Of a stretch of 64,000 bases of DNA, positions 4,256-63,048 are shown piece after piece. The stretch is from Octopus vulgaris (taxonomy: Eukaryota): contig OX597815.1 in the NCBI GenBank assembly GCA_951406725.2, positions 70,680,001 through 70,744,000 on the forward strand, written 5' to 3'. The notes beneath the pieces were generated by a model. That model ran no database searches and was not told the origin of the DNA. It was given only the letters and a program-made list of their open reading frames with translations. A program made the position numbers and the translations under genes. The first letter of the stretch is position 1, and every line of letters starts with the position of its first letter.

Positions 4256-6111
4256 TTCTAACACGACACCACCACTCATGACTGTCCTTAAAGAAACAGT
4301 GGGCTGTGGGCCGATTGGTCACAAGTTTAAGATTTGGCATTCAAATGTAATTTTCTATTTTGAAAAATTGCTTCAGAGAAAGTTACAGAGGCAACTGGGT
4401 CTTATCTGATAATTGATCGTTCGACAGTAGTCAAATCTCATCGGTCACTCACAAATCACCGAGTTTGACATCCATTTTACACGCTCGACTTCACGGTTGT
4501 CTCCCTTCTATAAACAAGCTTCATCTCAAAACCGATTATTTTCGCGGGTGAACAAGAACCGGTAGACTTATTTCGAACTCCTGATGATAAAATCGAAAAG
4601 TACAATCGAGTATCCCTAATGTATGTTTCAATATACTGTATTTAATGACATTAAAACGCATCTTTCCCCATCCACCAAAAATCACCTGGTGTCCTAAATG
4701 CAAAACTTAACACCTATATTACGTGCTTCGAAACAGAAGTCCCACACACCATGGAAAAGAAAAAGCCACAGAAGGACCAGAAGCAAATTTATTAGGTCTG
4801 GTTTAAGAATCCATATTCCCGGATAGGAATAATGAAATAAAATTAAGGAAACAATAAAAACCTTTTCTCTTCCTCATTGAGATAAGGAACTTAAACTGTA
4901 CATAAATTTTCGGTCAGATACTATAAATAACAGCGAAGACAATAATTAAAAAAAAAAAAAGAAAACACTTGGGTTTAATCTGAAAATCTCAGCTTTATAT
5001 ATCTTTATAAAAACTATTCTTTTTTAATCAAGCAAGGGAGCTTGAGAAATTCTCATTAGTCCAGGTGGATTAATGATCAAAATGAATATTTACAGACGAT
5101 GTTTGAAATGTTAATGATTGGGGGCAGTAAACTAGCGATGGAGGTGTGCTTGATAAAAAGGGTTATAGCAAGACAATTCCTTAATTAGATATCTACAAGT
5201 GCTTTGTATTAAATGTTTTAGGTCTTTCTTGTGCATGTTCGTTTAAAATTATTTCTCTTGATATTCCAGTCAACGTAAACAAGTACTGATGGTCTGCCCC
5301 GACATCTGAAGTTCCTTGGCGATGACCCTCATCGTTATTTTGAACATGGATGAATTCCAATGTCCTTTTCGTGTCCGAGCGTTTAAAGCACTACTGCCAA
5401 CGGCCTTAATTGCATTCAAACTTTGTAAATCGCCGTACTCTGCATGTATAGTAATGACTGCTTATCTACTTAATTGTTAGCAAACTCGGAGAAAATAGAA
5501 ATGGTGTTTGATGAATGGCATGACAAAAATTATCTATTTCAGCTAAGTAGATATTTACAAGACTTCTGTAATAATAACATTGTAAAAGCTTTTCGTAAGT
5601 TCGTTCATATTCCCCCCGACACAGTCCTATTCCTTTTGTCAATAATCAGAGATTGTAACGGGTGATTTGGTTTTAATTCGAAACAACGCAAGAACTGAAA
5701 CGACCACAAATCCGTCTGAATTGAACTTGCATCTCTTCTTCGATCTACCAATGTTTATAAATAGAGCTCTCGATATGCATTAAACGAGTGATTGCACTAG
5801 ACATAAATACAGAGGCGATTCACCTTGGTTATTCAATACTACGGCGACAATATTAATTTCCTTTCCATTCCAGATAACAAAAATTCTTTCGGAAACTCGA
5901 TATTTGGTATTTGTTTGAATTATCTCAAAAAAATTGTACAATATAGATTGGTCATCAGTCAAGGTAATAGATGGTTGTTATAATGTAATTTGGATATTTT
6001 CAAGACTAGTCTGTTTGATATTTTCCTAAAATACATACCATATTAAACGATATTCCACATAAATATAAAATCCTAAATACACAAATTTTATTACCTAAAT
6101 GCACACCTCGC

Positions 6112-6199
6112 TTACTTTTTCTTCGTTCCGGCCTTCTTCGTAACGAGCAACTTTACTTCCATCGGATCCTTGGGCGGGTACCTCGATGTTGTCTCTCAT
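6112..6199 (-). pseudogene. Highly reduced histone H1 remnant (locus 4)
   Basis: ATG AGA GAC...CCC GCC resembles MSDATAPA/MTETAAPA; 3' end AAGGCCGGAACGAAGAAAAAGTAAGCGA matches locus 3 end AAGGCCGCAGCAAAGAAAAAGTAAACGA (VTKKAGTKKK* in a shifted frame). Confidence 0.6.
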
Positions 6200-6730
6200 A
6201 GCGGCTCTCTTTGCCTTCGTTAAGCGGTTTTCTTTAGCTGCTACGTTTTGTTCCTTGCAGTCCTTGTACGCGTAGTCGCGAAGGTCCTCACTCAAGGCCA
6301 GCTTCATGGTAGCAACTCCAACACCCATTTCTCTCGCCAAAGCCCGAATTCCCTTGCTAGGATCTTCTTTCACCTTGTCCCGCAGCTGTTGAATGAATTC
6401 GGACGTGCGCACGGTGTCAGAACGCCTGGCGTGTCCTTTCCTGCTGGCCACTGCTTCGTAGTCACCATTACAGCTCTCCATGTCACGTCGTACAGTCTTT
6501 ACAGTGTTCAGCGAGCACTGTGCAGTAGTCATGATGTTGGCATTTTCATACCCAGCGCGAATCATCATCATACAGGTAACTCTTTTCCAATATTCAGATG
6601 GCTTCCAGTCTGCCATGTCAAATAACTTTTTAACTATCACTTCAACGGAGTTGACAATTCATCAAGATGTTCCTGAAAAAGGAGACATGAAGAAGAAAAA
6701 AGTCATTAAAATTAGCCCAAGCACCTTGCA
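6200..6730 (-). mobile_element. Tc1/mariner-superfamily (maT/rosa-like) transposon 5' part encoding only the N-terminal HTH DNA-binding region
   Basis: ORF from ATG 6616: RSDTVRTSEF...KEDPSKGIRALAREMGVGVATMKLALSEDL; TIR-like CAAGGTGCTTGGGCTAA at ~6728; catalytic domain absent. Confidence 0.8.
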
Positions 6731-6849
6731 TATATAAACAAAATGAAGACCTTTCGGTGAGGACCAAGCTTCAGGTTACGAAGTTTAGTAACCATCTACT
6801 GATCAATACAAACTGAGCAGTTCCGAAACAAGCTGAATTGTTAAACACA

Positions 6850-7307
6850 TATTTATACATTGCGTGCGGACGTAGTAGTAATCACATCAACACTGCGACC
6901 ACCTACAAATATGGCCACCGAACTACAACATCTGTGCTTTTTGTCTATATGTTTTTAGTGTAGAGTACTTGGATTTCTTAACAAAACCTAACCAATTTAC
7001 TGACAGCCTAAGCAAAAGAGGCTTTGCTACATTTTATCGTAAGAATTTTGTTTCAGAGACGCTTCTGATTTATAATATTTCCATAAATAGGTTGTGTTGT
7101 CTCCTCCAAAAAATCAGAGTACGTTACAATCAAGACTAGATTTTAAGCCTTTCACTTGGTGTTCACGATTTTTTCTGTCAAAATTTTAAAGAATAGTAAT
7201 ATCTGATATATTTTTTTGTAAATTCATTCTCCTGGACGACAATGCATGTCAGATGTGAAGTGTCTGATTGCCCTAACAAACACAATTTTTACAAGCCGAT
7301 CCGCCAT
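6850..7307 (-). promoter_or_regulatory. H1-type promoter (locus 4)
   Basis: ATGGCGG 7307; TGTGTTT 7284-7278; AAGCACA 6939-6933; GCCAT ending 6911; CTACGTCCG 6875; TATAAATA 6857-6850; 6740-7390 is a diverged reverse complement of 60605-61250. Confidence 0.8.
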
Positions 7308-7389
7308 TTTCTCTTCTAAAAATTTTCAGTCGCTAAAAATATTGTCTTAATAGTTTGCTAAAAACACCGCTTTTGGCCTTAAATAGTAA

Positions 7390-9787
7390 GCTAAGAGACA
7401 GACTTACTTAGCCAGAAGGGAAGCAGATAAGAAAAATTTTGCCAATGTTCTGCGTCGTGAGGATCAGAGACTTGAAGTGCTTCGTATTGCAAGACAGTGT
7501 GTGAGGGAGAATCGTGATGTCACAGGAGAGAAATGTGTCTGCATGGATGATGGCTCACTTGCATTTAATGATGTAGCAAAGAGGGAGACTTGGAGATGCC
7601 TCTATGAAAGGTTGCTAAATGAAGAGAATGAATGGGAGAAAGAGAGTCTGCCAAATGTCGACCCAGCAGAGGGACCAGCTATTTGAATTGACAGTACCTT
7701 GGTAGATAAAGCAATAAAGGGTATGAAGACGGGGAAAGCCCCCGGACCATCAGGAATCACTGCTGAGATGCTTAAAATATCTGGCGGCGTAGGCTATTGT
7801 CCAGTCATCCGTATAGTTAACCAGGTGATACAAGGAGTCATACCCAATGACTGGTGTAGTAGCACCATAGACAACTGCTACATAGGTAAAGGTGACACAT
7901 TAGATAGGAATAATTAAAGAGGTATCAAATTGTTGTATCAGGTGATTAAGGTCACGGAGAGGGTCATAGCCCAACTAATTAGGATGAGAGTTAGTTTAGA
8001 CGAGATGCAGTTTGGGTTGGTGCCAAGGAGAAATACCACTGATGCTATATTTCTGGTAAGGCAGCTGCAGGAGAAATTCCTAGCCAAACATAAACCTTTG
8101 TACTTTGACCTTCGTTGAGAAAGCCTTTGACAGAGTCTCCCGATCCCTTATCTGGTGGTCAATGTGGAAACTAGGGATAGATGAGTGGTTGGTGAGAGCT
8201 GTTCAAGCCATGTATAAGGATGCTGTCAGTAAGGTGAGGGTTGGCAACGAGTATAGTGAAGAATTCCAGGAAGAAGTAGGGGTTCACCAAGGATCAGTCC
8301 TCAGCCCCCTCTTATTCATCATAGTCTTCCAGGCAATAACAGAGGAATTCAAGACAGGCTGCCCCTGGGAGCTCCTCTATGCTGATGGCCTTACTATAAT
8401 AGCTGAGTCACTACCAGAAATAGAGAAGTTTCAGGAGTGGAAGCATGGTCTAGAATCGAAGGATAATGGCGTCAATCTAGCAAAAACTAAGTAGGAAGGC
8501 AGACAAATCACAGACCCTTTCAGGTAGATGGCCCTGTTCGATCTGTGGAAAAGGTGTAGGTAGAAACTCCATAAGATGTATCTGGTGTAAGCTATGGACA
8601 TGTAAGAGGTGCAGCACTATCAAAGGATGGTTAACTGGGAAGATAGTTTTTGTGTGTGGTAGATGCATAGAGGCAATAAACACTAAATATGTACAGAAAC
8701 AGATTTCATCACATGCCAGGGGGTAAAACTAGAAGTAGTTGATAGCTTTTGTTACCTAGGTGATTAAGTCAGTAGCAGATGTAGATACTCTGAGAGCATA
8801 GCTGCTAGAATAAGAATAACCTGAGCAAAGTTCAGGGAGCTCCTACCTCTGCTGGTAACAAAGGGCCTCTCACTTAGAGTGAAAGGTAGACTGTATGATG
8901 CATGTGTGTGAACAGCCATGCTACATGACAGTGAAACATGGGCTGTGACTGTTGAGGACATGTATAGGTTTGAAAGAAATGAAGCTAGTATACTCTACTG
9001 GATGTGTAATGTCAGTGTGCATATACGACAGAGTGTACGTGCCCTGAGAGAAAAGTTGGACATAAGAAGCATCCAATGTGGTGTGCAAGAGAGATGACTG
9101 CGCTGGTATAGGTCATATGTTGCATATGGATGAGGGCAGCTGTGTGAAGAAGTGTTACACCTTAACAGTGGAAGGAAGCTGTGGAAGAGGTAGACTCAAG
9201 AAGACTTGGGATGAGGTGGTGAAGCACAACCTTCGAACGTTGGGCCTCATAGAAACAATGACAGGAGCTGGGGCCGGTGCCCTCTGGCTGGCTCCCATTT
9301 CAATGGCACGTCAAAGGCACCATCCGAATGTGGTCGAAGCCAGGTCCGCCTGATTGGCTACTGTGGCAGTCACACGTGAAAACACCAACCGATCATGACC
9401 GATGTGAGTACTCCGCCGAGTGACTCCTGTGCCGGTGGCACTTAAAAAGCACCATCTGAACGTGTTCGTTGTCAGGTCCTCCTTACTGGCTCCGGTGCCA
9501 GTGATACGTAAAAAGCACCAACCAATTATGACCGATGCCAGTACCCTCATACTGATTCCTGTGCCGTAATCGTTGCCAGGCCTGCCTTACTGGCTCCTGT
9601 GCCGGTGGTACGTAAAAAGCACCCACTACACTCTCGGGGTGGTTGGTGTTAGGAAGGGCATCCAGCTGTAGAAACTCTGCCAGACCAGACTGGAGCCTGG
9701 TGCAGCCGCTGGCTCTCCAGACCTCAGTCAAACCGTCCAACCCATCCACCATGGAAAACAGACGTTAATCGATGATGATGATGATGT
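7390..9787 (+). mobile_element. 5'-truncated RTE-clade LINE (RT pseudogene, 3'UTR and (GAT)n tail)
   Basis: KAPGPSG, QFG..P...TTDAIF, EKAFDRV, GVHQGSVLSPLLF, LLYADG, GRGRLKKTW across several broken frames. Confidence 0.93.
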
Positions 9788-11835: not shown

Positions 11836-12350
11836 CACACACACATAACTAGCTAGGTCTTTAGATAGACAGATAAATAAATAAAGTGTGTGTACAAACG
11901 TATATATATCTGCCACGCATCAATTTTTGAAACTTTTCTCTCCGAAACAACAATGATACTTCACCTGAAATCATATCCGTTAAATACTTCGAAATCTAAC
12001 TAGAACAAAAAAGTTGTTTTTTTTTTTTGCGGGGGGGGGGCTACAAATTTTATAGTAATAATATCTCTAAAACAATATATTTTCTAAATAATTCCGTTTA
12101 GTTTTACTCGAATTCCCTATTTAATTCTGTAATTCGACATGAACGAAGTGGTTATAGAAATTCTTATTGAACATCAACATTTATGCTGTTGATAGCTTTG
12201 TAGAGTGTTTATTATTAAGTAAACAAGTTGATAAAGATTTCTAATTAACAAGAAGGTATTCGATAAGTGTTATTCAAGAAAGAAGTCGTAAATGCACAGA
12301 GAATGCGGTTTAGAAATATCATTCTTATTTCTTAAACGCATATCTGAAGT

Positions 12351-12812
12351 ATGGCGGCAGTGTGAAGCAAAACTGTGTTTCTAGTTGTAAACAGTGCTAT
12401 TATAGTTGTTTTATTTTTCCTCGATTCTTTCAAATATTCGACTTAATATATAGCAGTATGAATATTCTTTCGTATCTAAAGTTTAGAAGACATAACATTA
12501 ATATATATTCTTGTAATTTAAAGTTTCATTGAAGCCTATCGACAACCTAACACAGTGACAACATCTTATATTAATGATAATAATATTGGCAAGATACTCG
12601 TAACAGATGTTTAATCTTCCTGAAACATTAACTCGAAGTCCATAATTTAATTCCATGGCCTTAGAAAGTTAAGTTTTTATTTGTAAACCAGACAGCAAAG
12701 CAGTTAAAGCACACCGAAGAAACACATAAGATGTTGACAAGCTGCCATTTTGACACATAGAGAGCATGAGCGTTCTGTGTTTACTGCTACGTCGGCGCGT
12801 TGTGTATTTATA
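12351..12812 (+). promoter_or_regulatory. H1 promoter (locus 1): YY1-like site, TG box, H1/AC box, TATA
   Basis: ATGGCGG 12351; TGTGTTTCT 12374; AAGAAACACA 12717-12726 (canonical H1 box); GCCATTTT 12744; CTACGTCGGCGCG 12787; TATTTATA 12805. Confidence 0.85.
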
Positions 12813-12911
12813 GCAAGTGTGTTATGGTGTGACGTATTATTATTCAACTCGTCCTATCAATTATCACGCAGATTTTTGTGTTCACCGTCGACTTTACCGA
12901 CCAAAACCAAT

Positions 12912-13454
12912 ATGACTGAAACTGCAGCACCCGCTCCTGCTACCCCTAAGGTGAAGAAAGCTGCCAAAGCTAAGAAACCTTCAACTCACCCGGGTTACAG
13001 CGAAATGGTTAAACAAGCTATTACAAGTTTGGGCGATAAGAACGGTTCCTCTCGTCAGGCCATTGTCAAATACGTTCTGAAGAATTTCAAACTGTCGGCT
13101 AATGAGAAAGCTGCGACTATCCAGACTAAGATGGCTTTGAGGAGAGGTGTTGCTAGTGGAATGTTGAAACAATCGAAAGGAACTGGAGCTTCAGGGTCAT
13201 TTAAAATCGGTCCTAAGAAAGAGGGGAAAAAAGTGAAAGCCAAGAAATCCACAAAACCCAAAGTCAAACCAAAAGCTGCCAAGAAGCCAGCAAAGAAGCC
13301 TGCCGGCAAAAGCAAGAAAGTTAAGAAACCTCGGACTGCCAAACCTCAAAAGAGCAAGTCTCCGAAGAAAGCTGCTGCCAAGAAAGTTACTAAACCAAAG
13401 AAGGTTACCAAACCCAAAAAGACTAAAAGTTCTAAAAAGGCCGCTAAGAAGTAA
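12912..13454 (+). CDS. H1: Linker histone H1 (180 aa; H1-delta/H1.0-like variant), intronless
   Basis: MTETAAPAPA start; winged helix HPGYSEMV..AI..L....GSSRQAI.KY...KQSKGTGASGSFKI; Lys/Ala/Pro-rich tail. Confidence 0.97.
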   Translation: MTETAAPAPATPKVKKAAKAKKPSTHPGYSEMVKQAITSLGDKNGSSRQAIVKYVLKNFKLSANEKAATIQTKMALRRGVASGMLKQSKGTGASGSFKIGPKKEGKKVKAKKSTKPKVKPKAAKKPAKKPAGKSKKVKKPRTAKPQKSKSPKKAAAKKVTKPKKVTKPKKTKSSKKAAKK

Positions 13455-26224: not shown

Positions 26225-26343
26225 ATTTATAAGTGTAGGTGGTATACGAGTGGGTATATATTTATAAAAAGATGTATATATATATATTTACATATATATA
26301 TATATATATATATATACATATGTATATATATTTATATTTTTAC

Positions 26344-26375
<32 letters not shown>

Positions 26376-26452
26376 TTACACACACATATATATATATATA
26401 CACACACATACACACGCTTACATACTTACATATCGACTGATAGATTAATAGC

Positions 26453-26484
<32 letters not shown>

Positions 26485-26485
26485 A
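25570..26485. repeat. (TA)n/(TACA)n/(GATA)n microsatellite block with a small embedded repeat
   Basis: Seen directly. Confidence 0.9.
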
Positions 26486-26985
26486 AAACAAGCAGATAGA
26501 TTTTGATCGTATGTGTAAATGTGTTTTCAAACGTCTAACTCATCAATTTTTGACATTTTTTCCCTCCGAGACGACGATACTTCACCTCAAATATTCATCA
26601 TAAATACTGCAAAACAACAACAAAAAAGAAATTTAGTCTCTTGTTAGTTTTTTTTTTTTTACCATACTATAAATTTTCTACAAACAGTATACTTAAAACA
26701 ATATATTTTTCTAAATAATTCCTTTTACTCGAATTCCCTGTTCAGTTCTGTAATATCGTTCGATGTGAACATTTTTCAGTGGTTGTGAAAGTTCTTATGA
26801 AACAAACATTAACATTTATGTTGTTGAGAGCTTTGCAAGGTGTTTATCATTAACTAAAGAAGTTGATAAAGATTTCTAATTAAAATGTAAAAGGTATTCG
26901 ATAAGTTTTATTAAAGAAAGAAATCGTAAATGAACTAACAATGAAACTTAGAAATATTCTTATTTCTTAAACGCATAACAGAAAT

Positions 26986-27450
26986 ATGGCGGCAGCGGGA
27001 AGCTAAACTGTGTTTCTAGTTGTAAACAGTGCTATTATAGTTGTTTTATTTTTCCTCGATTCTTTCAAATATTCGACTTAATATATAGCAGTATGAATAT
27101 ACTTTCATATCTAAAGATTAGAAGACATAACATTAATATATATTCTTGTAATTTAAAGTTTCATTGAAGCCTATCGACAACCTAACACAGTGACAACATC
27201 TTATATTAATGATAATAATATTGGTAAGATACTCGTAACAGATGTTTAATCTTCCTGAAACATTAACCCGAAGTCCATAATTTAGTTCCACGGCATTAAA
27301 AAGTTAAGTTTTTATTTGTAAACCAGGCAGCAAAGCAGTTAAAGCACACCGAAGAAACACATACGATGTCAACAAGCTGCCATTTTGACACAAATCAAGA
27401 GCATGAGTTTTGTGTGTTTACTACTACGTCGGCGCGTTGTGTATTTATAG
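26986..27450 (+). promoter_or_regulatory. H1 promoter (locus 2), near-identical to locus 1
   Basis: ATGGCGG 26986; TGTGTTT 27009; AAACACA 27355-27361; GCCAT ending 27383; TATTTATA ~27442. Confidence 0.85.
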
Positions 27451-27470
27451 CAAGTGTGTTATTGTGTGAC

Positions 27471-27600
27471 GGCGAGCTGGCAGAAACGTTAGCATGCCGG
27501 GCGAAATGCCTAGCGGTGTTTCGTCTGCCGTCACGTTTTGAGATCAAATTCCGCCGAGGTCGACTTTGCCTTTCATCCTTTCGGATGTGGCAATAAAGAA
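27471..27600 (+). mobile_element. Internally deleted family-2 SINE at the presumed TSS of locus 2
   Basis: Interrupts GTGTGACG|TA.TATTATTCA, which is continuous in locus 1. Confidence 0.75.
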
Positions 27601-27623
27601 ATAATATTATTCATTTCGTCTTG

Positions 27624-28152
27624 TGTTGCATTCCAGAAGTTTTAAGACTATTTTAGGAGAAGCAGTCATAACTATCCTAGATTATAGTAATTTTAATATT
27701 TCATTTCTATACACGTAATAATCTGACATGCCAACATTTTTTAAATTCTAAATTGAGAGAGACAGTTGTAACAGCTCCCTGTACACACCGTACTAGACAC
27801 TGCTTGTCACAGCTGACAAGCTTACAGGATGCAGTTGGGACGCGAAAGTAAGTTGAATGCTCGCTCTGCAATAAAATATTGTATTAAACTGGGCAAAAAT
27901 GCTCCAGACTACTTATGGAAGTATGAGGCGAGCATGTTTTTCGCTGGTACAAGAGATTCAAGGGAGGTGAGAGACAATGGGATGGGGAGGGACGTTAGAA
28001 CATCAGTGCTGGTTGAGAAAATTCGCAGTTTTCTGGATGAAGACCGTCCTGTGTCTATAAAGACAATAAGCGTACAGTTTGAAGTTGGTGGCAACTGGAG
28101 ACAGAATTATTCATGAGATCTGAACATGCGCAAAATTGGGGCAAAGTTTGTT
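27624..28152 (+). mobile_element. Decayed 5' half of a mariner (same family as 61264-62832)
   Basis: TIR-like TGCATTCCAGAAGTTTTAAGACT; AIKYCIKLGKNA, DVRTSVLVEKIRSFL.ED..VSIKTIS, MRKIGAKFV; frameshifted. Confidence 0.85.
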
Positions 28153-28191
28153 CGCAGACAGCTACCATTGCCTTCATCGAGCGAAATCGGC

Positions 28192-28347
28192 ATGACTGAG
28201 ACGAAGGGGAAGAAAACTGCCAAAGAGAAGAAAGTTTCGACACATCGGGGGAAGAAGCCTAGGGTTGTTAAACCTCAAAAGAGCAAGTCTCTAAAGAAGG
28301 TTACCAAACCTCAAAGGGCTAAAGCTACAAGAAAGGCCACCATGTAG
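28192..28347 (+). pseudogene. Globular-domain-less H1 derivative (locus 2), 51-aa ORF; pseudogene or small basic protein
   Basis: MTETKGKKTAKEKKVSTHRG|KKPRVVKPQKSKSLKKVTKP aligns to the N- and C-terminal tails of locus 1; stop codon supplied by an LTR. Confidence 0.8.
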
Positions 28348-31300
28348 GGCAGGATTTGTGACAGATGAACTGTAGACAGAAACTTCGCTGCGGTCTAGCT
28401 AGGAAGTTGGTCGGCAGCAAGAAAAGGAACTTCCGGTATGAGAAGGTAAAAAAAGAATGTCAACAGTGAGTGTGTAACTAATCTGAATGAACTAAACAGA
28501 AATAACTGGCGACTTAAACCCTGATGTACGTTAGGTAATAAACCTTTGATATCTGTATTCTCATCTAGTTTGTTTGCGTATAGCTTAACAAAGCTATAAC
28601 TGATGACTCCGACAATAGAACAATAGCACTCTCGAAACAAACATGGCTAGTAACAAAACAACACTGAGGCTACCATAGTTCCGGCCTAAGAGGGCTGAAC
28701 TATGGTTGGCGCAGGTGGAAGCTCAATTCGATATAAACAAGGTAACGGCCGACCAAACGAAGTACTCGTGCGTTGTGGCAGCACAAGACGAAGATACGGC
28801 TACGAGGGTACTGGACATTTTAACCCAACCCCCACCACCGAAGAAACACGCCATATTGAAAGACAGGCTAGTGGATACATTCCGACGCAGTAAAAGAGAA
28901 GCGGCAGCCAAGATATTGGAGGAGGAATTAGGCGATTCCAAGCCTTCAGAATTGATGGACAGGATGTTGGCATTAGTCCCCTATCTACGGTGGGTCACCT
29001 TCCTTTTTGTTTAAGGAAACAATCCTCCGCAAGCTGCCTCTCCAGGTTCAGACCCTCATAACTCATACCAAAATCAAGGACCTGCGGCAATTAGCAAAGG
29101 TAGCTGACAAACATTTTTTATCCAGTGGTGTCATGGTCAACGCCATAGGGTCAAGCCTCGAGACAGGGTAGGGTTAAGTATGATGACCTGTGCTTCTACT
29201 TCGCAAAGTACAGGGAAAAGGTGACAACGTGCAAACAACCATGTAGCTTCGGGATCCCTTCACCAGTGACCCAGGGAAACTCTAGGACCGGCCGCCATTG
29301 AACGTCCTGGTGGCCAGCAGACATGACCAAATGCTCCTCTATGTCTGTGATTGCAGCTCCAGACATAGGTTCTTAATCGATAGAGAAGTCAGCGTGATCC
29401 CGGCATCGGCAAGGGACTGGAAAGCGGAGCCAACCTTTAACAGCCGCCAATGGGTCCACAATCAAGACATACGGTCGTCGCGCCCTTTCTCTCAACATCG
29501 GCTCACAAAAATACACATGGGCATTCACCATCGCCGATGTCCATCAGCTCATAATCAGACTTTCTTTGAGCACGCTTGCTACTGGTTGATTTGCGGGGAA
29601 GACGACACCTCGACAACAATACATACGCTTCCGTACCTCTTGCAACATCTGCACATGCCTCCCTCCCTCCTCATAGCGACCAACTCGCAGACCAAGAACG
29701 AATTCTCGGATCATCTTGTAAGTCGCTTCAATATCACCACTCCGATATTCTCCGAACCTACAGCTCGCCACAGGGTGACACACCACATCTTCACCGCCCC
29801 GCCCCCCGTGCCAACTGCGCACGTCGTCTATCACCAGACAAACTTGCAATCGCAAAGGCCGAATTCGACAAAATGGAGGCATTGGGGATAGTTCGCCGAT
29901 CAAACAGTCCCTGCCCTCCCACCCTGCATGTGGCCCCAAAATCCAACAGAAGTTGTCGAACCTGTGGAGATTGCCGCCGTCTCAACGCGGGTACGACATC
30001 TGACTGCTACCCCATTCCATACAGGATTTTTCAACCCAGCTAGCCGGGTGCTCGGTTTTCTCCAAGGTTGACCTCATTTGGGGATACCAGTACAAGACGA
30101 CGAAAGCTGCTGTGATCATTCCTTTCGGTCTGTACGAATCCATACAAACACCCTTTGGGCTGAAAAATGCGGCACAATCCTTCCAACGCCTGTTAGACAC
30201 TGTATGCAAAGGTCTCGATTTTGTCTTTGCATACTTAGATTATATCCTTATTGCAAGCCCAAACGCAGAGCTACATAAGCACCTAGTGACTTTTTTCGGT
30301 AGGCTGGAACAGTATGGTTTAGTAATCAACCCCGCCAAGTGCATTTTTGGTGTGACAGAAATCGACTTCTTGGGACATCGAATCACAAGTGCCGGCACTA
30401 CACCCCTGCCAAGAAAAGTAAAAGCTATCCTATTCTTTCCACGCCCCACCACAAACAAGGCTCTATATCAATTCGTGGGCATGGTAAACTTTTACCATCG
30501 CTTCATCCCTTCTGCAGTAAAAATGATGAGACCCCTATATAAGGCACTGTCGAAAGATGGTTCAAAAAGACAGGTGGAGTGGGATAGTACAATGACTTCA
30601 GCCTTCGAATCCACAAAACAAGCCCTGGCTCAAGCAACCATGCTGTCCCATCCTCATATATCAGCTTAGATTGCACTCACAGTTGACGCATCCGACACAG
30701 CCATTGGAGGCGTTTTGAAATAACACATCAACAGGCAGTGGCGACTGCTCGCCTTCTTCAGCTGACAACTAAGATCCCCTGAACAGAAATACAGTGCTTT
30801 TGACAGGGAGCTACTGGCTGTCCATCTAGGTGCCTGTCACTTTCGCTATTTCCTTCAACGTCGCACGTTTACAGTACTCACGGATCACAAACTACTTATC
30901 TTTGCTATGAGCAAGCTCTCGGGGCCTTGGTCTGCACGCCAGCACGACAGCTACCGGTAATTTCTGAGTACACCATAGACATCCAACATATAGCTGGCAA
31001 GGGCAACCCAGTTGCCGACGCACTTTCTCGTGCTCCTACCCAACAGACAGATAACGAGATCAGAGCCTACCGCACTGCCATCATATTACTTTCTTTGCAA
31101 GATATACGCTTTGGCTCTAACGGAACAACCCTACTGTGTGACGTATCCACTGGGAAGCCACGACTGATCGCCCCATCAGCCTGGCGCAAGAAAGTTTTTG
31201 ATATCATTCATGGACTTTCCCACCCAGGTACTAAAGCCACACAGCGGCTGTTGTCAAGCAAATTTATCTGGCTCAGCATGGCCAAGCAAATCGGGAACTG

Positions 31301-31975
31301 GACCAGGTCCTGCATCTCCTGTTAACAAGCCAAGGTCCATGAACACACCAAAGTACCCCTCGGCAACTATGAACCTCCTCAGGCCCGATTCAGCCATGTC
31401 AACATTGACCTTGTCGGCCCCATACCACCTTCAGAGAGTTGCTCGTATCTACTGACCTTGGCAGATCGTTACACCCGTTGCCCTGAAGCTGTCCCTCTCC
31501 GCAGCATGGAAACACAAGAAGTCAGCCGAGCCTTCATCGCCCCTTTCGGTGTCCCAGATAGCATTTCATCCGATCGGGGTCCACAGTTCACTTCAAAGCT
31601 GTGGAATAACGTGTAACCGTTTCGTAAACACAATGAACCGCACAACAGCCTACCACCCACAGGCCAACGGGTTACTGGAGAGATTTCACTGCCGCCTGAA
31701 GGAATCCTTGACAGCCAGACTTAACGGGCCAAATTGGATTGACTAACTACCTAGGTGATGCTGGGAATCCACACCGCCCCAAAAGAAAATCTCAGCACTT
31801 CCTCCGCGGAAATGGTGTACGGTGCTCCTCTTACAGTGCCAGGAGAGTTCCTTCCGAATACGAAGACTGACCCGGACGTCAAAAGGTACCTTGCTCAACT
31901 GAGTACACCCAGATCCTCCATACCAAATGACCTCCTCACGGCTAACTTTGTGATCGTTTGACGTGACACACGACA
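28343..31975 (+). mobile_element. Decayed Ty3/Gypsy LTR retrotransposon (5' LTR ~28343-28614, gag, protease, RT, RNase H, integrase; no 3' LTR)
   Basis: TGTAGG...CCGACA LTR containing AATAAA; gag AQVEAQF; RT PFGLKNAAQSFQR, YLDYILI; TDHK; GKGNPVADALSR; HGLSHPG; TTAYHPQANGLLERFH. Confidence 0.92.
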
Positions 31976-34471: not shown

Positions 34472-36486
<2,015 letters not shown>

Positions 36487-38877: not shown

Positions 38878-41695
38878 CAGTAGCGTATCAATCACAAGTG
38901 CCGGCCGGGGCGGATGTTTATTTGGTTGCCACTTGAAAGTTCTAATCAACATTTCAAAAGGCCCAAAATGAAATAATACAGGTATGTGTGTATGCAAAAT
39001 AAGGAGACAAACTGTAGCAGCCATTTATTTCTCTCAGATTTACTTTTATTATGTTTATACACAAAAAATAATAGGACAAATATGTTAAAAAAAGATGAAT
39101 GAATTACAAAAATAAATGATTTACAAATTGATTTTGCGTGTCTACCTCTTCGCGAAATCTTGAATGACTTCATCAAAATTAATTTTATTCGCAAGGTCGC
39201 GCTCTATGGATAGTATTACAATATTTGGCAAAGAATCAATAAGAGTATATTTCTGAATAAACTGAAGAATTTGCAACGGCCTTTCCATGTCTTCAGCGTC
39301 AGCAACCACCAAATAATTTTGCAGCCTTGTCCTTTCAACCAAAAAGTCTTCTCTCTTAATATTCTCATCAAAAGCATCTACATCACAATTACACTCTTTA
39401 TCTAAGAAACGGTGTGAGAAAGGTGTATTTCTTTGCAATATCGTGAAGTCTTTCGAATCTAGAGGTTAATTCTTCAACCAGTCTATCAGTGACAACATTT
39501 CTCTTCTTACCTCAGCGTCGTAGCTGAGAGCGGCGGCATCGATACTTTCTTCGTAGTTCATTCTTTTCTTTTTGCGAATTCGACGATCTGTGCAGATTCC
39601 CATAGAGCAAATTTCGATTGAATAGACCAACGCGTTATCTACTGTTTTGCTTCTGCTTACAAGTAGAGAAGTTTCCAAGGCTGATAGTTTAATGGTACAT
39701 TGTTGCAACTCCAGACCTTTCGTTTGGAGGTACTTTTGAGTGCCATTAATTTGAGAAAGTATATCTCTCCCATGGCCAAAAAAATGACAAGAAAGAAAAT
39801 GACAGCATCACTTGAAGAATTAAAGCTACATCAGATCACGTAGTTACGTTTTCTGCATCTTCACTCAACCGTTCTAGCGAAGCGATGATTTCCGTGAATT
39901 TTTGTAAGTACAATTTCTACTGCATCTGTCCGACTACTCCATCTCGTTTCCGCAGCCCGTTTGACAGTTGCACCAGTTATCTCAATCAAGATATCTCATC
40001 GATGAGTTGAGGTTGAGAAGAATGACAATAAACGGTCAAATGTGCCAAAAACCGTAACTGAATCTGCACCCACAGAAGGTGCTTGCACAGCAGTTAAATT
40101 CAGAGAGTGATAGGGGCATGGTACAAATACAGTCTTTGGATTAACTTCTGTGATGTGCGCTTGAACACCGGATCGATGACCTGCCATTACTGCCGCGTTA
40201 TCAAATGCTTGTCCACGACAGTCTTGAATGTTTATGTCGTCCATTTTTAATTGTTGCAGAATCATTGATGTAATTTGCTCAGCATTTTTGCCTTTCATCT
40301 CAATAAAATGAAGAAAGGATTCTTTTACTTTTACTTCCTTTTCATCTATTTTAACATAACGTAGCACCCGAGAATTTGGTCAATATGAAAAATATGAGTA
40401 TTATAAAAAAATAACGCAATAGTATTTACTCTGTTTAACTACATCGATAACTTTCTTTCTCACTTTATCTCACAGGACGTTCACAAATTCATTCTGAATT
40501 TTTGGTGAGAGATAGGAAGTTGTTAACTTAACAATTTTTACTTTCACCAAATGTTCATGTAGCACTGGATAATCATTTGCCTTCTCAACTCGAATATCTT
40601 CTCTATGGCCTTGTAAAACTTAGCAAGAAACATAATTATGCCCAAGAATCTAGTCAGGATTTGCTTTCATTTCTTTGTTCCATTTTCAACAAGAGTTTGT
40701 TGTTTTTTGTCTATTACCTTGCCTTTTGAAAGGCGAATTTCTAACTCTTTCCACTGAATGAACGCATTCTCATGCGCAGGGCTAGATTCATGTTCTTGTA
40801 TCTTAGGATTCAAATTCCACCAAGATTTGAAACTATCAACTGAGCAAAACTTTGAGTTTTCACTTGAAAATAGCTTACAACAAAACACGGCTTCTTTTGA
40901 TGGAGAGTATATTATCCAAATTCTCAAAAAATTTTCCCCGTTTTGTAAAGTTCGAAAAAAAAAAGTTTCTTGACAGTCTTCTAGTCTCCCCTTTCAGTTC
41001 TGTTATTTGTCCTGGACGTTCACAGTTAATATTTTGCATAGCCTTCGATCCTTGTTGTTCAAGGATTTCCCGAATACCGTCAGCATGATTAAACTTAGCA
41101 GGTCACATCCCAATGTCTTTCAAATTAATATTAGAGCTTTGTTCTTCAGTAGTTGGTGGTGGATCAGCTTCATCGACTTCATCCTCTATCATCTTTTCAA
41201 GTTGCACTTCATTAACATCATCATCTCCAAGACCTTCTACAGTAATACCAGTTTCGTCTAAACGGTCGGGTTTGATGAGAAATTTAATTATGGCACCTTC
41301 ATTTCGCCTTTCTTCTTCTCGTTTTTTTTTTTTTCGAAATGCTGCACCGTTGTCCTTAATTCGCTTCATCTCAAATTATATCAGTGATATCGTAAATTTA
41401 TATGAATAAAATCAAATAGAGTATAGACCAACCTAAAAAATAATCAACTTTCTGAATATCATCGACAGACTGTCTTATCCAGTAACACACAATATTATAC
41501 TGTATCTTACACAATATTAATACACAGTACAAGTTTACAGATGGTAAATTTAATTTTTAAGGAAATTTGAATAGCTAGCATACATTATTAAAGTCTATAA
41601 TATTCATATTGCATTTTTATTAATGATATGTTAATATAAATAAATTGTGCCGCCCGGGTGGACCGCCTTCCCCACCGCCTCTTGGTACACCACTG
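38878..41695 (-). mobile_element. Full-length decayed hAT transposon (ZMYM1/TTF-zinc-finger type transposase)
   Basis: Perfect 8-bp TSD CCGGTACC; TIRs CAGTAGCGTATCAA / TTGGTACACCACTG; motifs W..YSPSKEAVFCC..HE.SPAH, CRGQAFDNAAVMAG, FVPC..HSLNL, INFDEVIQDFA. Confidence 0.93.
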
Positions 41696-58404: not shown

Positions 58405-58694
58405 GAGAAGTGGTAGTCAGTGGGGGAAAGAGCATGTGAGTATAGTTGATGATGGAGAACTTCCAATTCCATCTTCTGTAGTTTCACCAATGTCATTTTT
58501 GTGATGTGTGGTCTGACGTTGTCTTGCAATAAAATAGGAGTGGATCTGTTGACTAATCTAGGCTGTTTTTTTGTAAGTTTCAGCCTCATTTGGTCCAGTT
58601 GGCTGTATACTTTAGCTGCGATTGATGAGCCAGGTTTAATGAAATCATAATGGGTCACACCTGCACCAGACCACCAAACACACACCATCAGCTT
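58405..58694 (-). mobile_element. Near-identical duplicate of an internal piece of the 55250 mariner
   Basis: Translation almost identical to 55430-55715; no TIRs. Confidence 0.85.
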
Positions 58695-59631: not shown

Positions 59632-59689
<58 letters not shown>

Positions 59690-60039
59690 TACATGTATCT
59701 AAAACCCATACATATTCACAATCATTTAAATGAAGCCTGTGTGTGTTTACATCTCTATCGGTAACTAAGATTCATATAAATTTTATTTACAATTGCAACA
59801 AAATTCCCTTTTTTGGCTCCAATATGAATTGAAGGTATTATGATCAGTTATAAGGAAATATCACTGGATCCCGACAAGAGAGAAATGCAACCGAAATATG
59901 AAGTCGTATATACCTTTGTAAAGATGATATAAACAACGTTTGGGACCTCAGATTTTTTTGTTAGTTAATTAGTTTTGAAAAATAATAATTAAAATGCTGA
60001 CTTGAGTGCTATTACAATCTATTATTATAGTGAGAAATA

Positions 60040-60258
60040 AGGCAGCGAGCTGACAGAAACTTTACTGCGCCGGACAAAATGCCAAGCGGTATTTCGTTCG
60101 ATTTTACATTCTCAGTTCAAATGTCGCCGACATTGACTTTGCCCTTCATCATTTTGGGGGTGATGAAATAAATTATTGGTGAAGTACAAGAGGTGGATGT
60201 AATCAACTAGTCTACTCACGCAAAACTTCAGGCCTTGTGCCTATACTAGAAAGGATTA
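60040..60258 (+). mobile_element. SINE family 2
   Basis: GGCAGCGAGCTGACAGAAAC...AGTTCAAAT head. Confidence 0.7.
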
Positions 60259-60676
60259 ATACAGTGGAAAATAATTTGCTGATAATAGGGAAATAACTCG
60301 AAAAATAAAGTGGTTTTAATGATACAGTGGTTTCGTCGCTCTTCAGTTGGAAAAATACAATATATATGAATATATTGCTTTGACTGTAAATCTATAGGAA
60401 ATATGTTAGGAAATTATATTGCAACTGAAGAAAATGTGACATATTTCAACCTAAATAGTAACGTGTATGTCCTGTGTTAATAGTGTATCCGAAGTATAAA
60501 TCAGATTTCCGGTCATTAAAACTCACTAAAGATAAAAAAACACAAAAAAAACAACAACTTTATTCACTTATTTACAAAGGAAACATCATCATACATGTTA
60601 TCATTTATAGTCCAAAAAATGATGTTTTTAGCAAAATATTAAGAATATTATCAATTGAAAATTGTTAGAAGAGAAA

Positions 60677-61132
60677 ATGGCGGATTGGTATCTAAAAATT
60701 GTGTTTGTTGGTGCAATCGGACCCCCTGCATCTGATTTGCATTGTCATCTAGGAGAATGAATTTACAAAACACTATATTATTTATCCTTTAAATTTTTGA
60801 TAAAAAATATCTTGAACGGGCAAATGAAAGACTTAAAATGTAGTCTTGATCGTAGCCTATATTGATTTTTCAGTGTAGACAACACAAGATGTTTGTGGTG
60901 ATATTATGTGCCAGAACTTATCTCTGAAACAGAATTTCTGCGATAAAATGTAGCCACATCTTTTCTTTGGGTTTTTCGGTGAACTGGTTAGGTTTTGTAA
61001 TGAAGTTACAGTAGTTTACACTACAAATATTGAAACAAAAAACACAGTTGTTATATTTCGGCTGCCATATTTGTAGTTGTTTGTCGCACTGTTGATGTGA
61101 TTTCTACTACGTCCGTGCGCAATCTATAAATA
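60677..61132 (+). promoter_or_regulatory. H1-type promoter (locus 3)
   Basis: ATGGCGG 60677; TGTGTTT 60700; AAACACA 61040-61046; GCCAT ending 61068; CTACGTCCG 61107; TATAAATA 61125. Confidence 0.82.
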
Positions 61133-61458
61133 AGCTTGTAACGTTAGGAAGTGCAACTTGAGTTAGTCACTTGTCGTTCGTTTTTGCGAACATTCCGTCG
61201 AGCTTCGTAACCAGAATCTTCGTTCATACTGAAGGATTTTCATTTTTTTTTTTTTCATATTTACGAGGTGCATTCCGGAAGTTTTGAAACTTTTAGGAGA
61301 GGTAGTTGTAGCTATCATAAATTATTGTAATTTTAGTAATACATTTAAGTTGACTTGCGAATGTTTTTTTTATAATTCCAGACTGTGCAAAACGGCTGTA
61401 ACATCCCTTTGAAAACACCCCACTAAACACAGCTTGTTGCGGCTGACAAGTTTGTAGA

Positions 61459-62523
61459 ATGCAGTCAGGACGCGAAGACAATTTGGAAGTTCGCTATGCA
61501 ATAAAGTTTTGTGTTAAACTGGGCAAAAACGCTAGAGAAACTTATGAAATGCTCCAGGCTGCTTATGGATTAACTTGTATGTGTCGATCATCTGTTTTTC
61601 GCTGGCACAAGAGGTTTAAGGACGGTAGAGCGGAGGTAAGAGACGATGAGAGGTGTGGAAGGGAGAAAGACGTCAGAACATCAGAACTAGTGGAGAAAAT
61701 TCGCAATTTTCTGCATGAAGATAGTCGTGTGTCTATAAAGACAATAAGCATACAATTTGGAGTTGGTGTGGCAACTGTACACAGAATTATTCATGAAGAT
61801 TTGAAAATGCGCAAAATTTGTGCTAAGTTTGTTCCTAGTGTGCTCAGTGATGAACAAAAAGAAAGACGCGTTGGTGACAGCAAGGAGATGGTTGAACTCA
61901 TTACCTCCAATCCAAGAGTACTTGAGTCTCTGGTGACATGTGACGAAAGCTGGATCTACTGTTATGATCCAGAGACCGAGGGACAGAGTGCCCAAAGTAA
62001 TCTTGGCTCCCCCACACCGAAGAAGGCCAAGCAAAGCAAGTACACCAGGAAGCTCATGATGATCCCCTTTTTCGACAGCAAAGGCATAATCTACACCCAC
62101 TGGGTTCCCTTTGGCCAGAGCGTCACCAAAGAGTATTTTGTGGAGGTTTTGAGGGAGTTCGGGGAAAGATTTCCCTACAAAAGGCCAGAGCTCTACCAAT
62201 CGGGTCGGTGGCATCTACACCAGGACAATACACCAGTCCACAATTCCATCCTGGTAACCAACTACTTGACAGAGATGGGCATTAAAACTGTCCCTCAACC
62301 GCCCTGCAGTCCAGATCTTTCTCCCTGTGACTTTTGGTTTTTCTCCAGGCTGAAAGAGAAACTCAAAGGTAGACGTTTTGATGACATTGAGAAGATAAAG
62401 GAGGCTGTGACAAAGGTCCTGGACACTTTCACTTTGGAGGACTTTCACGGAGCTTTCACCAAGTGGCTAGAGCGCTACAACAAGTGCATTGAAGTGAAAG
62501 GATCCTACTTTGAAGGAGAATAA
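61459..62523 (+). CDS. Mariner transposase, uninterrupted 354-aa ORF, DD34D
   Basis: HTH N-terminus; FVPSVL linker; TCDESW, HQDNTPVH, CSPDLSPCDFW with exactly 34 residues between the last two Asp. Confidence 0.9.
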   Translation: MQSGREDNLEVRYAIKFCVKLGKNARETYEMLQAAYGLTCMCRSSVFRWHKRFKDGRAEVRDDERCGREKDVRTSELVEKIRNFLHEDSRVSIKTISIQFGVGVATVHRIIHEDLKMRKICAKFVPSVLSDEQKERRVGDSKEMVELITSNPRVLESLVTCDESWIYCYDPETEGQSAQSNLGSPTPKKAKQSKYTRKLMMIPFFDSKGIIYTHWVPFGQSVTKEYFVEVLREFGERFPYKRPELYQSGRWHLHQDNTPVHNSILVTNYLTEMGIKTVPQPPCSPDLSPCDFWFFSRLKEKLKGRRFDDIEKIKEAVTKVLDTFTLEDFHGAFTKWLERYNKCIEVKGSYFEGE

Positions 62524-62557
62524 TTTTGTACCTCTTTGAAACTAATAACTATCTCTT

Positions 62558-62775
62558 ATTTCTTTATTGCCCACAAGGGGCTAAACATAGAGGGGACAGA
62601 CAAAGGGATTAAGTCAATTACAACGACCCCAGTGCGTAACTGGTACTTATTTAATCGACCCAGAAAGGATGAAAGGCTAAGTCGACCTCGGCGGAATTTG
62701 AACTCAGAACGTTAAGACGGACGAAATACCGCTCAGCATTTCGCCCGGCGTGCTAACGTTTCTGCCAGCTCGCCG
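62558..62775 (-). mobile_element. Family-2 SINE nested in the mariner 3' region
   Basis: 18-bp TSD AACTAATAAC(T/C)ATCTCTT at 62540 and 62781. Confidence 0.85.
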
Positions 62776-62850
62776 TCTTCAACTAATAACCATCTCTTCT
62801 GCAAAGGTCTCAAAACTCTTGAATGCACCTGGTACATTGATTGAACAATC

Positions 62851-63048
62851 ATGTCTGACGCCACTGCACCCGCTTCTGTTGGTCCTTTTAAGGTCACTGC
62901 TGGTAGAAAAGGAAAAAAACTAAGAAGGTACACGTTAAACCAAAAACTGAAGGAAGCTAAGAAAAGTGGTACCAAGAAAGCAGCCACGAAACTTATAGCC
63001 CCAAAGGAAGCCGCCAAAACACCCAAGGCCGCAGCAAAGAAAAAGTAA
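62851..63048 (+). pseudogene. Globular-domain-less H1 derivative (locus 3), 65-aa ORF
   Basis: MSDATAPA joined to SVGPFKV (equivalent to ASGSFKI), then a K/A/P tail ending TPKAAAKKK*. Confidence 0.8.

What the first reader, a model, noticed from the sequence alone, without database searches (positions are those of the whole stretch)
6095..63048. Three of four H1 paralogues carry a sense-oriented Tc1/mariner between TATA box and ATG
Seen: insertions at ~6730 (maT/rosa-like), ~27624 (mariner) and 61264 (same mariner family), all co-oriented with the H1 promoter. In paralogous loci 3 and 4, two different families sit at essentially the same homologous position, just after CTTCGTAACC...TTCATTTT. 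Loci 2 and 3 have the same family in unrelated 5'UTR sequence. These therefore look like three independent events. Established: mariners target TA and have weak promoters of their own. Inference: a transposon trap or promoter-hijack system in which H1 promoters drive transposase or transposon RNA (e.g. germline expression or silencing triggers) while the H1 ORF decays.
Basis: partly seen in the sequence, partly recalled or inferred. Interest (0 to 1): 0.78.

Follow-up and report, generated by a model that had tools for sequence, protein, structure and literature searches.

The report
Transposases adopted by histone H1 promoters
In an octopus cluster of histone H1 genes, three spare copies carry a jumping-gene insertion just behind the promoter and have lost most of their histone coding sequence, and in two of them the transposase reading frame is still open and unusually free of amino-acid changes, so these likely became new host genes driven by a borrowed histone promoter.

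Summary
The three sense-oriented Tc1/mariner insertions behind H1 TATA boxes are real and look independent; uninterrupted paralogues just outside the window show the empty site. The true count is 3 of 11 H1-type promoters seen in the genome, not 3 of 4. Locus 3 has lost its H1 ATG, and locus 2 also has a SINE at the start site.

New result: two of the three transposase frames look selected. Locus 4 keeps a stop-free 354-aa DD34D ORF, while 0 of 45 equally old sister copies are intact. It has 43 synonymous and 47 replacement changes (sisters average 43 and 114; P about 3e-5), decayed TIRs and a conserved core promoter (P=0.007). Locus 3 keeps a 173-aa ORF of the DNA-binding domain only, with the lowest replacement share against 39 sisters (P 0.001-0.03). 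Locus 2 is dead.

Best reading: host domestication of transposases by H1-promoter capture, acting through protein (probably TIR binding), not an RNA 'trap'. Expression and orthologues in other species are not shown.

The parts
6729..7400 (-). Locus 3: H1-type promoter and 5' UTR (TATA from 6857 downwards; CTACTACGTCCG motif at 6878)
   Evidence: 81-82% identical to the promoters of intact paralogues L002/L003
6208..6728 (-). Locus 3: 5' half of a Tc1-like element (decayed 5' TIR, 5' non-coding part, first about 136 codons)
   Evidence: 40 matches scored from 2286 candidates, others 71-83% identical; TIR start and target TA read as TG; homology ends near 6208
6095..6616 (-). Locus 3: stop-free 173-aa ORF: transposase DNA-binding domain plus a diverged tail ending in H1 3' sequence
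   Evidence: dN/dS 0.20 vs median 0.62 in 41 copies; two helix-turn-helix units predicted; Atlas neighbours Tc1-like HTH
6112..6138 (-). Locus 3: last codons and stop of the old H1 ORF, now out of frame
   Evidence: 23 of 27 nt match the L002 H1 end; 0 of 300 shuffles reach the score
11715..12911 (+). Locus 1: promoter and 5' UTR of the intact H1 (TATA-like TATTTATA at 12805)
12912..13454 (+). Locus 1: intact histone H1, 180 aa
   Evidence: Pfam Linker_histone E 8e-27; 86% identical to a protein named histone H1-delta of Octopus bimaculoides
26331..27470 (+). Locus 2: duplicate of the locus-1 promoter (TATA-like at 27442)
   Evidence: 80.6% over 1168 nt; proximal 500 nt 92-98%
27471..27584 (+). 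Locus 2: SINE fragment at the expected start site
   Evidence: 88-90% to other copies in the window
27622..28153 (+). Locus 2: dead 5' half of the DD34D mariner, cut at codon 125
   Evidence: dN/dS 1.59, 7 frameshifts; last piece in frame with the H1 ATG
28192..28347 (+). Locus 2: H1 remnant, 51 codons, globular domain deleted
   Evidence: no Pfam hit
60603..61261 (+). Locus 4: H1-type promoter and 5' UTR (TATA at 61125)
   Evidence: core 4 of 77 private changes vs distal 66 of 417, P=0.007
61262..62834 (+). Locus 4: full-length DD34D mariner with TA on both sides and two independently decayed TIRs (61264-61293, 62803-62832)
61459..62523 (+). Locus 4: stop-free 354-aa transposase ORF, D162-D256-D291 triad with 34-residue spacing
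   Evidence: Pfam HTH_48, Transposase_1, DDE_3; Mos1 and SETMAR as PDB relatives; dN/dS 0.27; triad
62557..62772 (-). Locus 4: SINE inserted inside the mariner's 3' non-coding end, after the stop codon
62851..63048 (+). Locus 4: H1 remnant, 65 codons, globular domain deleted
   Evidence: alignment to L002/L003; no linker-histone hit

Best explanation
Three redundant H1 copies each took a separate sense-oriented Tc1/mariner insertion in the 5' UTR and lost their histone coding core, and at locus 4 (strongly) and locus 3 (more weakly) the transposase frame shows purifying selection after insertion, so these are likely host-domesticated transposase genes that the captured H1 promoter would drive. 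SHOWN: insertions, empty sites, independence, open frames, low replacement rate, decayed TIRs, conserved core promoter at locus 4. INFERRED: (i) T-rich, TA-containing 5' UTRs of active, probably unmethylated H1 promoters were accessible targets, and insertions there were tolerated because other H1 copies remain; (ii) the H1 promoter transcribes through the element, and the transposase ATG becomes the first long frame (locus 4: one 4-codon upstream frame, A at -3; locus 3: G at -3 and +4, but five upstream ATGs); (iii) the useful part is the DNA-binding domain, which is the best-kept part at locus 4 and the only part kept at locus 3; (iv) the most likely job is binding the roughly 1,600-2,300 or more TIR-bearing relics of its own family, first as a dominant-negative or overproduction-type brake on transposition, perhaps later as a chromatin or transcription factor. 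My odds: selection on the locus-4 frame after insertion 0.85; same for locus 3 0.65; still expressed today 0.6; TIR-binding repressor as the function 0.35.
For: Locus 4 ORF: 0 stops and 0 frameshifts, 0 of 45 sister copies intact; dS 0.222 like the sisters, dN 0.060 vs 0.11-0.30. About 15 disabling changes expected at that dS (5.4 stops, 9.8 frameshifts). 43 synonymous / 47 replacement vs sister means 42.6 / 114.2, lower than all 39 sisters tested, P 2.5e-5; still P about 1e-4 without CpG-prone and weak columns. Third-position share 0.58 vs 0.27-0.40. DNA-picked and protein-picked sisters give the same background. In the genome search 48 of 50 long same-family matches have stops and the other two are partial; no copy above 83% identity. 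Non-coding ends are as diverged as in sisters (0.156 and 0.129), and the two TIRs carry different, unshared changes (2 and 4 in 30 nt), so the divergence arose at this site; the family tree is a star. Core promoter conserved at locus 4 (5% vs 16% distal, P=0.007), whereas the ORF-less copy L005 has 22% and a broken TATA. Codons 1-170: 20 synonymous / 12 replacement, P 1e-5. Locus 3: dN/dS 0.20, lowest of 42; codons 1-113 21/17, P 0.0008; predicted two-HTH fold, top PDB rows SETMAR DNA-binding domain and Mos1, none significant. Both copies keep most CpGs (19 of 27, 14 of 22).
Against: No expression data. No orthologue found: best protein hits are 73% (locus 4) and 70% over most of the domain (locus 3), although an O. 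bimaculoides H1 is in that collection; each search covered one length band only. At locus 4, codons 171-260 look neutral (9 synonymous / 21 replacement, P 0.53) and changes hit invariant and variable residues alike (13 of 106 vs 35 of 249), as in a copy that was selected and then relaxed; with stops alone such a two-phase history keeps the frame open with P 0.11 (0.002 with frameshifts). Locus 3 weakens to P 0.02-0.03 without CpG sites, 4 of 41 sisters are also open over 135 codons, its core promoter is no better kept than distal DNA (10 of 79 vs 53 of 414), and five ATGs precede its start. Locus 2 shows no selection. Locus 4 still has recognisable TIRs and TSD. dN/dS is measured against a family majority sequence, not between orthologues.
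Confidence: 0.58

Rival explanations
1. Former domestication, now relaxed: the H1-driven transposases were useful while their families were active, then selection lapsed; today they are pseudogenes that have not yet picked up a stop.
For: Neutral-looking codons 171-260 and hits at invariant residues at locus 4; locus-3 linker has lost basic residues and its core promoter is not conserved; both families are long dead; no orthologue found.
Against: With 41% neutral time about 6 stops plus frameshifts are expected at locus 4 and none is seen (P 0.002); its only indel is in frame; its core promoter is as conserved as in intact H1 genes.
Confidence: 0.22
2. Insertion hot spot plus ordinary birth-and-death: open H1 promoters attract insertions, the hit copies die, and the open frames are luck.
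For: Tc1/mariner relics are common here (14 clusters in 264 kb); locus 2 and L005 are plain pseudogenes; the three insertions are themselves a likely cause of H1 loss; same orientation three times has P 0.125-0.25.
Against: Cannot give 0 of about 15 expected disabling changes together with a 2.4-fold deficit of replacements at locus 4, nor the lowest ratio in both families at the two pre-specified copies.
Confidence: 0.08
3. RNA-level trap: H1 promoters make transposon RNA that feeds piRNA or siRNA silencing.
For: Sense transcripts through old elements could feed small-RNA pathways; loss of the most conserved H1 sequence at all three loci would avoid silencing real H1 genes (inference only).
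Against: Selection spares amino acids, not nucleotides: synonymous sites diverged fully. No small-RNA data.
Confidence: 0.06
4. Late, low-copy active sublineage or second horizontal entry: the low dN/dS was earned while the element was still transposing, and it landed here recently.
For: Some locus-3 residues match outside relatives rather than the family majority; genome searches score only the best candidates.
Against: No sister above 83% identity; star trees and no excess of shared changes; unshared TIR decay; changes at residues invariant in 10 outside relatives; a SINE, 77-90% identical to other copies, inside the element.
Confidence: 0.06

Closest known systems
Domesticated Tc1/mariner genes of Drosophila, esp. 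LOC26532114 (PMC13548663; abstract, sections 5 and 10, passages of 9, 15, 17 read)
   Same: Recent, lineage-restricted transposase gene with mild purifying selection, kept N-terminal HTH domain, expression thought to come from a neighbouring host promoter.
   Different: There the promoter is shared bidirectionally with a living gene and TIRs are gone. Here the transposase replaces the ORF of a duplicated H1 behind its own TATA box, apparently twice in one cluster from two families, and locus 4 keeps both modules, the DD34D triad and visible TIRs.
SETMAR / Hsmar1 (PMC6326780; passages read)
   Same: Mariner transposase kept by the host, with stronger constraint on the DNA-binding domain (KA/KS 0.1 vs 0.7 there; 0.20 vs 0.30 here against a neutral background near 0.68); binds old ITRs.
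   Different: SETMAR is a spliced fusion to a SET methylase and has D to N at the third catalytic residue. Locus 4 is an unfused ORF with all three D; no host domain is attached.
KRABINER and other host-transposase fusions (bioRxiv 10.1101/2020.05.07.082677; passages read)
   Same: Capture of a mariner transposase by a host transcription unit; proposed TIR binding.
   Different: Capture there is by alternative splicing from an intron, with a host effector domain; here by insertion in a 5' UTR with loss of the host ORF.
Stationary truncated P-element neogenes and KP-type repressors in Drosophila (seen only as a sentence and reference title in PMC8434751, and a sentence in PMC8700633; details recalled)
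   Same: Immobile, 3'-truncated transposase that may act as a repressor; closest functional model for locus 3.
   Different: Different superfamily (P/THAP); not linked to histone promoters in what I read.
Mos1 mariner transposase and overproduction inhibition (PDB 3hos; PMC6719617 section 14 read)
   Same: Same fold and DD34D signature; high transposase levels inhibit transposition.
   Different: Mos1 is mobile and selfish; locus 4 is fixed, old and has changes in conserved motifs (W180 deleted, YSPDL to CSPDL).

Membership tests
mariner (DD34D) transposase, locus 4 | D,D34D catalytic triad | tested here: met
   D162, D256, D291 with 34 residues between the last two
mariner (DD34D) transposase, locus 4 | N-terminal bipartite HTH domain, short TIRs, TA target duplication | tested here: met
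   Pfam HTH_48; TIRs and TA on both sides
maT/rosa (DD37D/DD41D), locus 3 | Triad spacing of 37 or 41 | not tested
   Locus 3 lacks the catalytic domain; sister copies were not read that far. Only 'Tc1-like HTH' is supported
Domesticated transposase gene (criteria of PMC13548663 section 5) | Homology to a transposase | tested here: met
Domesticated transposase gene (criteria of PMC13548663 section 5) | No TIRs/TSD around the ORF, low copy number | tested here: inconclusive
   Each open frame is single-copy among the scored matches; locus 3 has lost its 3' TIR; locus 4 still has both TIRs and the TA, though decayed, so the strict wording is not met there
Domesticated transposase gene (criteria of PMC13548663 section 5) | Intact frame under selective constraint | tested here: met
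   Locus 4 P 2.5e-5 to 1.5e-4; locus 3 P 0.0008-0.03; locus 2 not met. Measured against a family majority sequence
Domesticated transposase gene (criteria of PMC13548663 section 5) | Intact syntenic orthologues in other species, forming their own clade | not testable with these tools
   No related genome is held (header); protein searches found no orthologue-level hit
Domesticated transposase gene (criteria of PMC13548663 section 5) | Expression and function in vivo | not tested
   No read data were obtained; indirect only: core promoter conserved at locus 4
Host-transposase fusion (SETMAR/KRABINER type) | In-frame fusion to a host protein domain | tested here: not met
   Locus 4 stops before the H1 remnant. 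Locus 3 may have joined the H1 tail in frame (junction score reached by 5 of 300 shuffles) but the tail has lost its charge (12 K/R, 12 D/E over residues 114-172)
Linker histone H1 (loci 2-4 as paralogues) | Winged-helix globular domain | tested here: not met
   Pfam Linker_histone only at locus 1; loci 2-4 are H1-derived by promoter and tail DNA but encode no H1
piRNA-cluster-type transposon trap | Small RNAs from the locus; antisense or clustered relics | not testable with these tools
   No small-RNA data; insertions are sense and single

The most novel reading that the evidence does not exclude
The octopus H1 cluster is a recurrent nursery for transposase genes: spare linker-histone copies have repeatedly swapped their histone ORF for the DNA-binding protein of whichever Tc1/mariner family was invading, giving the host H1-timed, family-specific TIR-binding chromatin proteins, two of which (one full-length, one cut to the DNA-binding domain and first joined to the H1 tail) are still working.
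Probability: 0.25. Interest if true: 0.85.

Novelty: new variant of a known kind. Interest (0 to 1): 0.64.

Why it matters
Domesticated Tc1/mariner genes are rare, and how a new one first gets expressed is usually erased by time. Here the empty site, the captured promoter, a failed attempt (locus 2), an ORF-less control (L005) and thousands of neutral sister copies all survive side by side, so the birth of a transposase-derived gene can be read step by step and tested. Two such events from two families in one gene cluster would suggest that redundant, strongly expressed gene families act as launch pads for domestication. It would also give named candidates for transposon-derived regulators in octopus, where a role of transposons in novelty is much discussed. 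Locus 4 keeps both the DNA-binding module and the catalytic triad, a state that PMC13548663 says has not been observed in a domesticated Tc1/mariner gene.

Tried and rejected
Single ancestral insertion for all three: rejected (two families, two unrelated UTRs; loci 2 and 4 share no excess changes; loci 3 and 4 not sisters in the promoter tree, bootstrap 44 for the alternative). An early local hop from locus 4 to locus 2 cannot be excluded. CpG artefact of the majority sequence: only one miscalled site per family, result stands. Bias from picking sisters by protein similarity: none. Young hidden subfamily: none found. Using the shared promoter 16-mer to enlarge the sample: 41 genome hits vs 13 control; of the 28 loci looked at, those outside H1 genes were mostly an unrelated dispersed repeat or simple sequence. 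Orthologue hunts: nothing above 73% or 70% over most of the domain; exact sequences absent from the collection, as are two intact H1 proteins of this genome, so absence says little. Foldseek with the locus-3 model: no match at E<=0.001. Earlier scan notes: none. Literature: 'domesticated transposase + mariner + octopus' 0 papers; searches listed nothing on transposases in H1 or histone 5' UTRs by title or abstract start; PMC10027918 (passages) reports pogo, THAP, ZBED and other families in octopus but not this case; PMC13282606 has no occurrence of 'domesticat', 'histone' or 'transposase' in its main text. Supplements of these papers were not read and could list the loci. In-frame transposase-H1-tail fusions at loci 2 and 3 are noted but not relied on: weak junction evidence, possible microhomology between lysine codons, and no selection at locus 2.


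Full report
SETTING. The window is G000:C2:70680001-70744000 of a 2.8-Gb genome. Its one intact histone H1 (12912-13454, 180 aa; Pfam Linker_histone) is 86% identical to a protein named H1-delta of Octopus bimaculoides, so the host is an octopus. The window is the middle of a loose H1 cluster: intact paralogues lie at C2:70434814 (L007), 70613203 (L002/L008) and 70768743 (L003/L010), an ORF-less promoter copy at 70619138 (L005), and more H1 genes on C3 and C21. Eleven of these loci share a promoter motif, CTRCTACGTCSG, just before the TATA position; it was not seen at the two most divergent H1-like loci, L014 and L016.

OBSERVATION. Three derived copies carry a sense Tc1/mariner element behind the TATA box. 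Locus 4: TATA 61125, TA 61262-63, full element 61264-62832, TA 62833-34, then 16 nt and the old H1 ATG at 62851. L002 and L003 show the empty site, a TA 22 nt before the ATG following a T run. Locus 3 (minus strand): TATA 6857, a different Tc1-like family starting at 6728 at the same TA or within about 9 nt; a deletion removed the element's 3' half together with the H1 start, leaving only the last H1 codons at 6138-6112. Locus 2, a duplicate of locus 1: TATA-like box 27442, SINE 27471-27584, 5' half of the locus-4 mariner family 27622-28153, H1 remnant 28192-28347. All three H1 remnants lack the globular domain. The insertions look independent: two families, two unrelated UTRs, and locus 2 shares only 5 of locus 4's 55 substitutions, mid-rank among the 35 copies compared. 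The count is 3 of 7 core promoters in 264 kb and 3 of 11 seen in the genome. Against 11 other transposase remnants in that region, 0.04 insertions are expected in those UTRs (P about 1e-5, post hoc, background a lower bound).

THE UNNOTICED POINT: OPEN FRAMES IN DEAD FAMILIES. Both families are old. Other copies are only 71-83% identical to the window copies, with 1595-2286 candidates per DNA query, of which 40 were scored each. Yet locus 4 has a stop-free 354-aa ORF with an intact D,D34D triad. Of 50 long same-family matches in the protein search, 48 have stops and two are partial. I aligned 45 sister copies (52 loci given; 4 dropped as too long, 3 as duplicates) and compared each with their majority sequence, a 355-codon ORF. 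Sisters carry 1.8 stops and 3.7 frameshifts per 100 codons and none is intact; locus 4 has none of either, dS 0.222 like the sisters, dN 0.060, ratio 0.27 against a median 0.68 and a minimum 0.51. With the 39 best-aligned sisters (one of a duplicated pair and five copies over 21% divergence dropped), locus 4 has 43 synonymous and 47 replacement changes against means of 42.6 and 114.2 (P 2.5e-5); removing CpG-prone and weakly supported columns leaves P about 1e-4. 58% of its changes are at third positions, against 27-40% in 40 other copies.

THE SELECTION ACTED AT THIS SITE. The element's non-coding ends are as diverged as in sisters (0.156 and 0.129). Its two TIRs differ from the family TIR by 2 and 4 changes in 30 nt, none shared; an active lineage would keep them alike. 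The tree is a star with no sister clade, and a SINE has since landed in the 3' end. Independently, the core promoter of locus 4 has 4 private changes in 77 columns against 66 in 417 distally (P=0.007), like the intact genes (4 of 77, 3 of 78) and unlike ORF-less L005 (18 of 82, TATA broken).

WHICH PART IS KEPT. Constraint is strongest on codons 1-170 (20 synonymous, 12 replacement), absent on 171-260 (9 and 21) and moderate on 261-355 (14 and 14). Thirteen of 106 residues invariant in ten outside relatives have changed, among them W180 (deleted in frame) and the Y of the YSPDL motif (the role of these motifs is recalled, not tested). This fits a protein kept for DNA binding and overall fold, with catalysis probably weakened; it also fits partial relaxation, the main rival.

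LOCUS 3. A 173-aa ORF (6616-6098) covers the transposase's first about 136 codons and a short tail. Among 41 sisters (48 loci, 7 duplicates dropped) it has the lowest ratio, 0.20 against a median 0.62, though 4 sisters are also open over this short span. For codons 1-113, 21 synonymous and 17 replacement changes give P 0.0008, or 0.02-0.03 without CpG sites (39 sisters). AlphaFold gives two helix-turn-helix units at pLDDT 75-94 and a low-confidence tail; the best PDB rows are the SETMAR DNA-binding domain and Mos1, none significant; the Atlas places it among Tc1-like HTH proteins. Its TATA and promoter motif are intact, but the core is no better kept than distal DNA and five ATGs lie between the expected start site and its start codon. 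The case is real but weaker. Locus 2 is dead: ratio 1.59, seven frameshifts.

MECHANISM. Shown: independent sense insertions, loss of the H1 core, selection on two transposase frames, conserved core promoter at locus 4. Inferred: accessible T-rich UTRs of redundant H1 genes tolerated insertions; the H1 promoter then expressed the transposase; the host kept the DNA-binding part, most likely to occupy the TIRs of the invading family (dominant-negative or overproduction inhibition, PMC6719617 section 14), possibly later as a chromatin factor, as argued for SETMAR (PMC6326780, passages). The elements at loci 2 and 3 are both cut just behind the DNA-binding domain and appear joined in frame to H1 sequence; this is suggestive only.

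KNOWN AND NEW. [quoted passage not shown] Of the six criteria in PMC13548663, homology and constraint are met, TIR loss is not strictly met at locus 4, and orthology, monophyly and expression are untested, so these are candidates, not established genes. Replacement of histone H1 ORFs by transposases behind the H1 TATA box, twice in one cluster, did not appear in my searches (open-access library only, supplements unread). Protein searches found no orthologue, which counts mildly against present-day function.

VERDICT. Observation partly confirmed and strengthened by empty sites; interpretation partly supported. The finding is better described as probable transposase domestication by H1-promoter capture than as a transposon trap. 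Interest 0.64; new variant of a known kind.

Noticed in passing
window 12337-12834 vs its match upstream of 27471: The proximal 500 nt of the locus-1 and locus-2 promoters are 92-98% identical while the distal part is 73-86%, although locus 2 has long been dead: looks like a recent gene-conversion tract.
   Followed up: partly
L009 1449-1692 (G000:C2 about 70779130-70779372): A piece of a locus-1-type H1 (start to most of the globular domain, 86% identical, with residues shared with the O. bimaculoides protein) sits antisense inside a decayed mariner of another family: a fourth H1-mariner association, with the nesting reversed.
   Followed up: partly
L129 138-1830 (G000:C2:70650138-70651846): A distal fragment of the locus-3/4-type H1 promoter, then a SINE and a broken sense mariner of another family about 500 nt downstream; possibly one more such event with the core promoter deleted.
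   Followed up: partly
L005 (G000:C2:70619138-70619610): H1 promoter copy with a broken TATA and no ORF or element behind it; served as a negative control.
   Followed up: yes
window 28192-28347, 62851-63048, 6112-6207: All three H1 remnants have lost the globular domain and shrunk to a fifth to a third of their length by several deletions, while their promoters stay collinear; the remnants at loci 2 and 4 are still stop-free lysine-rich frames of 51 and 65 codons. Unexplained.
   Followed up: partly
L018-L121 (old transposon copies genome-wide): CpG retention is bimodal in both families (0-15% vs 33-73%), as if copies sit in two methylation environments; loci 3 and 4 are in the high class.
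   Followed up: no
L144-L147, L156-L158, L161-L171: The 16-mer of the H1 promoter also occurs in an unrelated dispersed repeat family (one search lists 41 hits vs 13 control).
   Followed up: partly
window 34503-36473: Inverted repeat (about 92% in self-BLAST) whose centre is a 750-nt TA-rich microsatellite.
   Followed up: no
window 28350-31750; 3-683: Decayed LTR-retroelement-like sequence (DUF7041 and RVT_1 hits) begins right after the locus-2 H1 stop; an integrase-like frame lies at the window start. Described only.
   Followed up: no
window 39145-41406 (-): Fragmented frames that resemble a hAT-type transposase by eye; no Pfam hit at E<=0.001 for the three pieces tried.
   Followed up: no
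G000 C28:3280488-3281528 (L067) and many 31-34% matches: Other, younger mariner families in this genome have many stop-free 350-375-aa frames.
   Followed up: no
P0174, P0176, P0210: Argonauta hians has two L002-type H1 proteins and one L007-type with the same longest-contig length, hinting that the cluster is older than Octopus.
   Followed up: no
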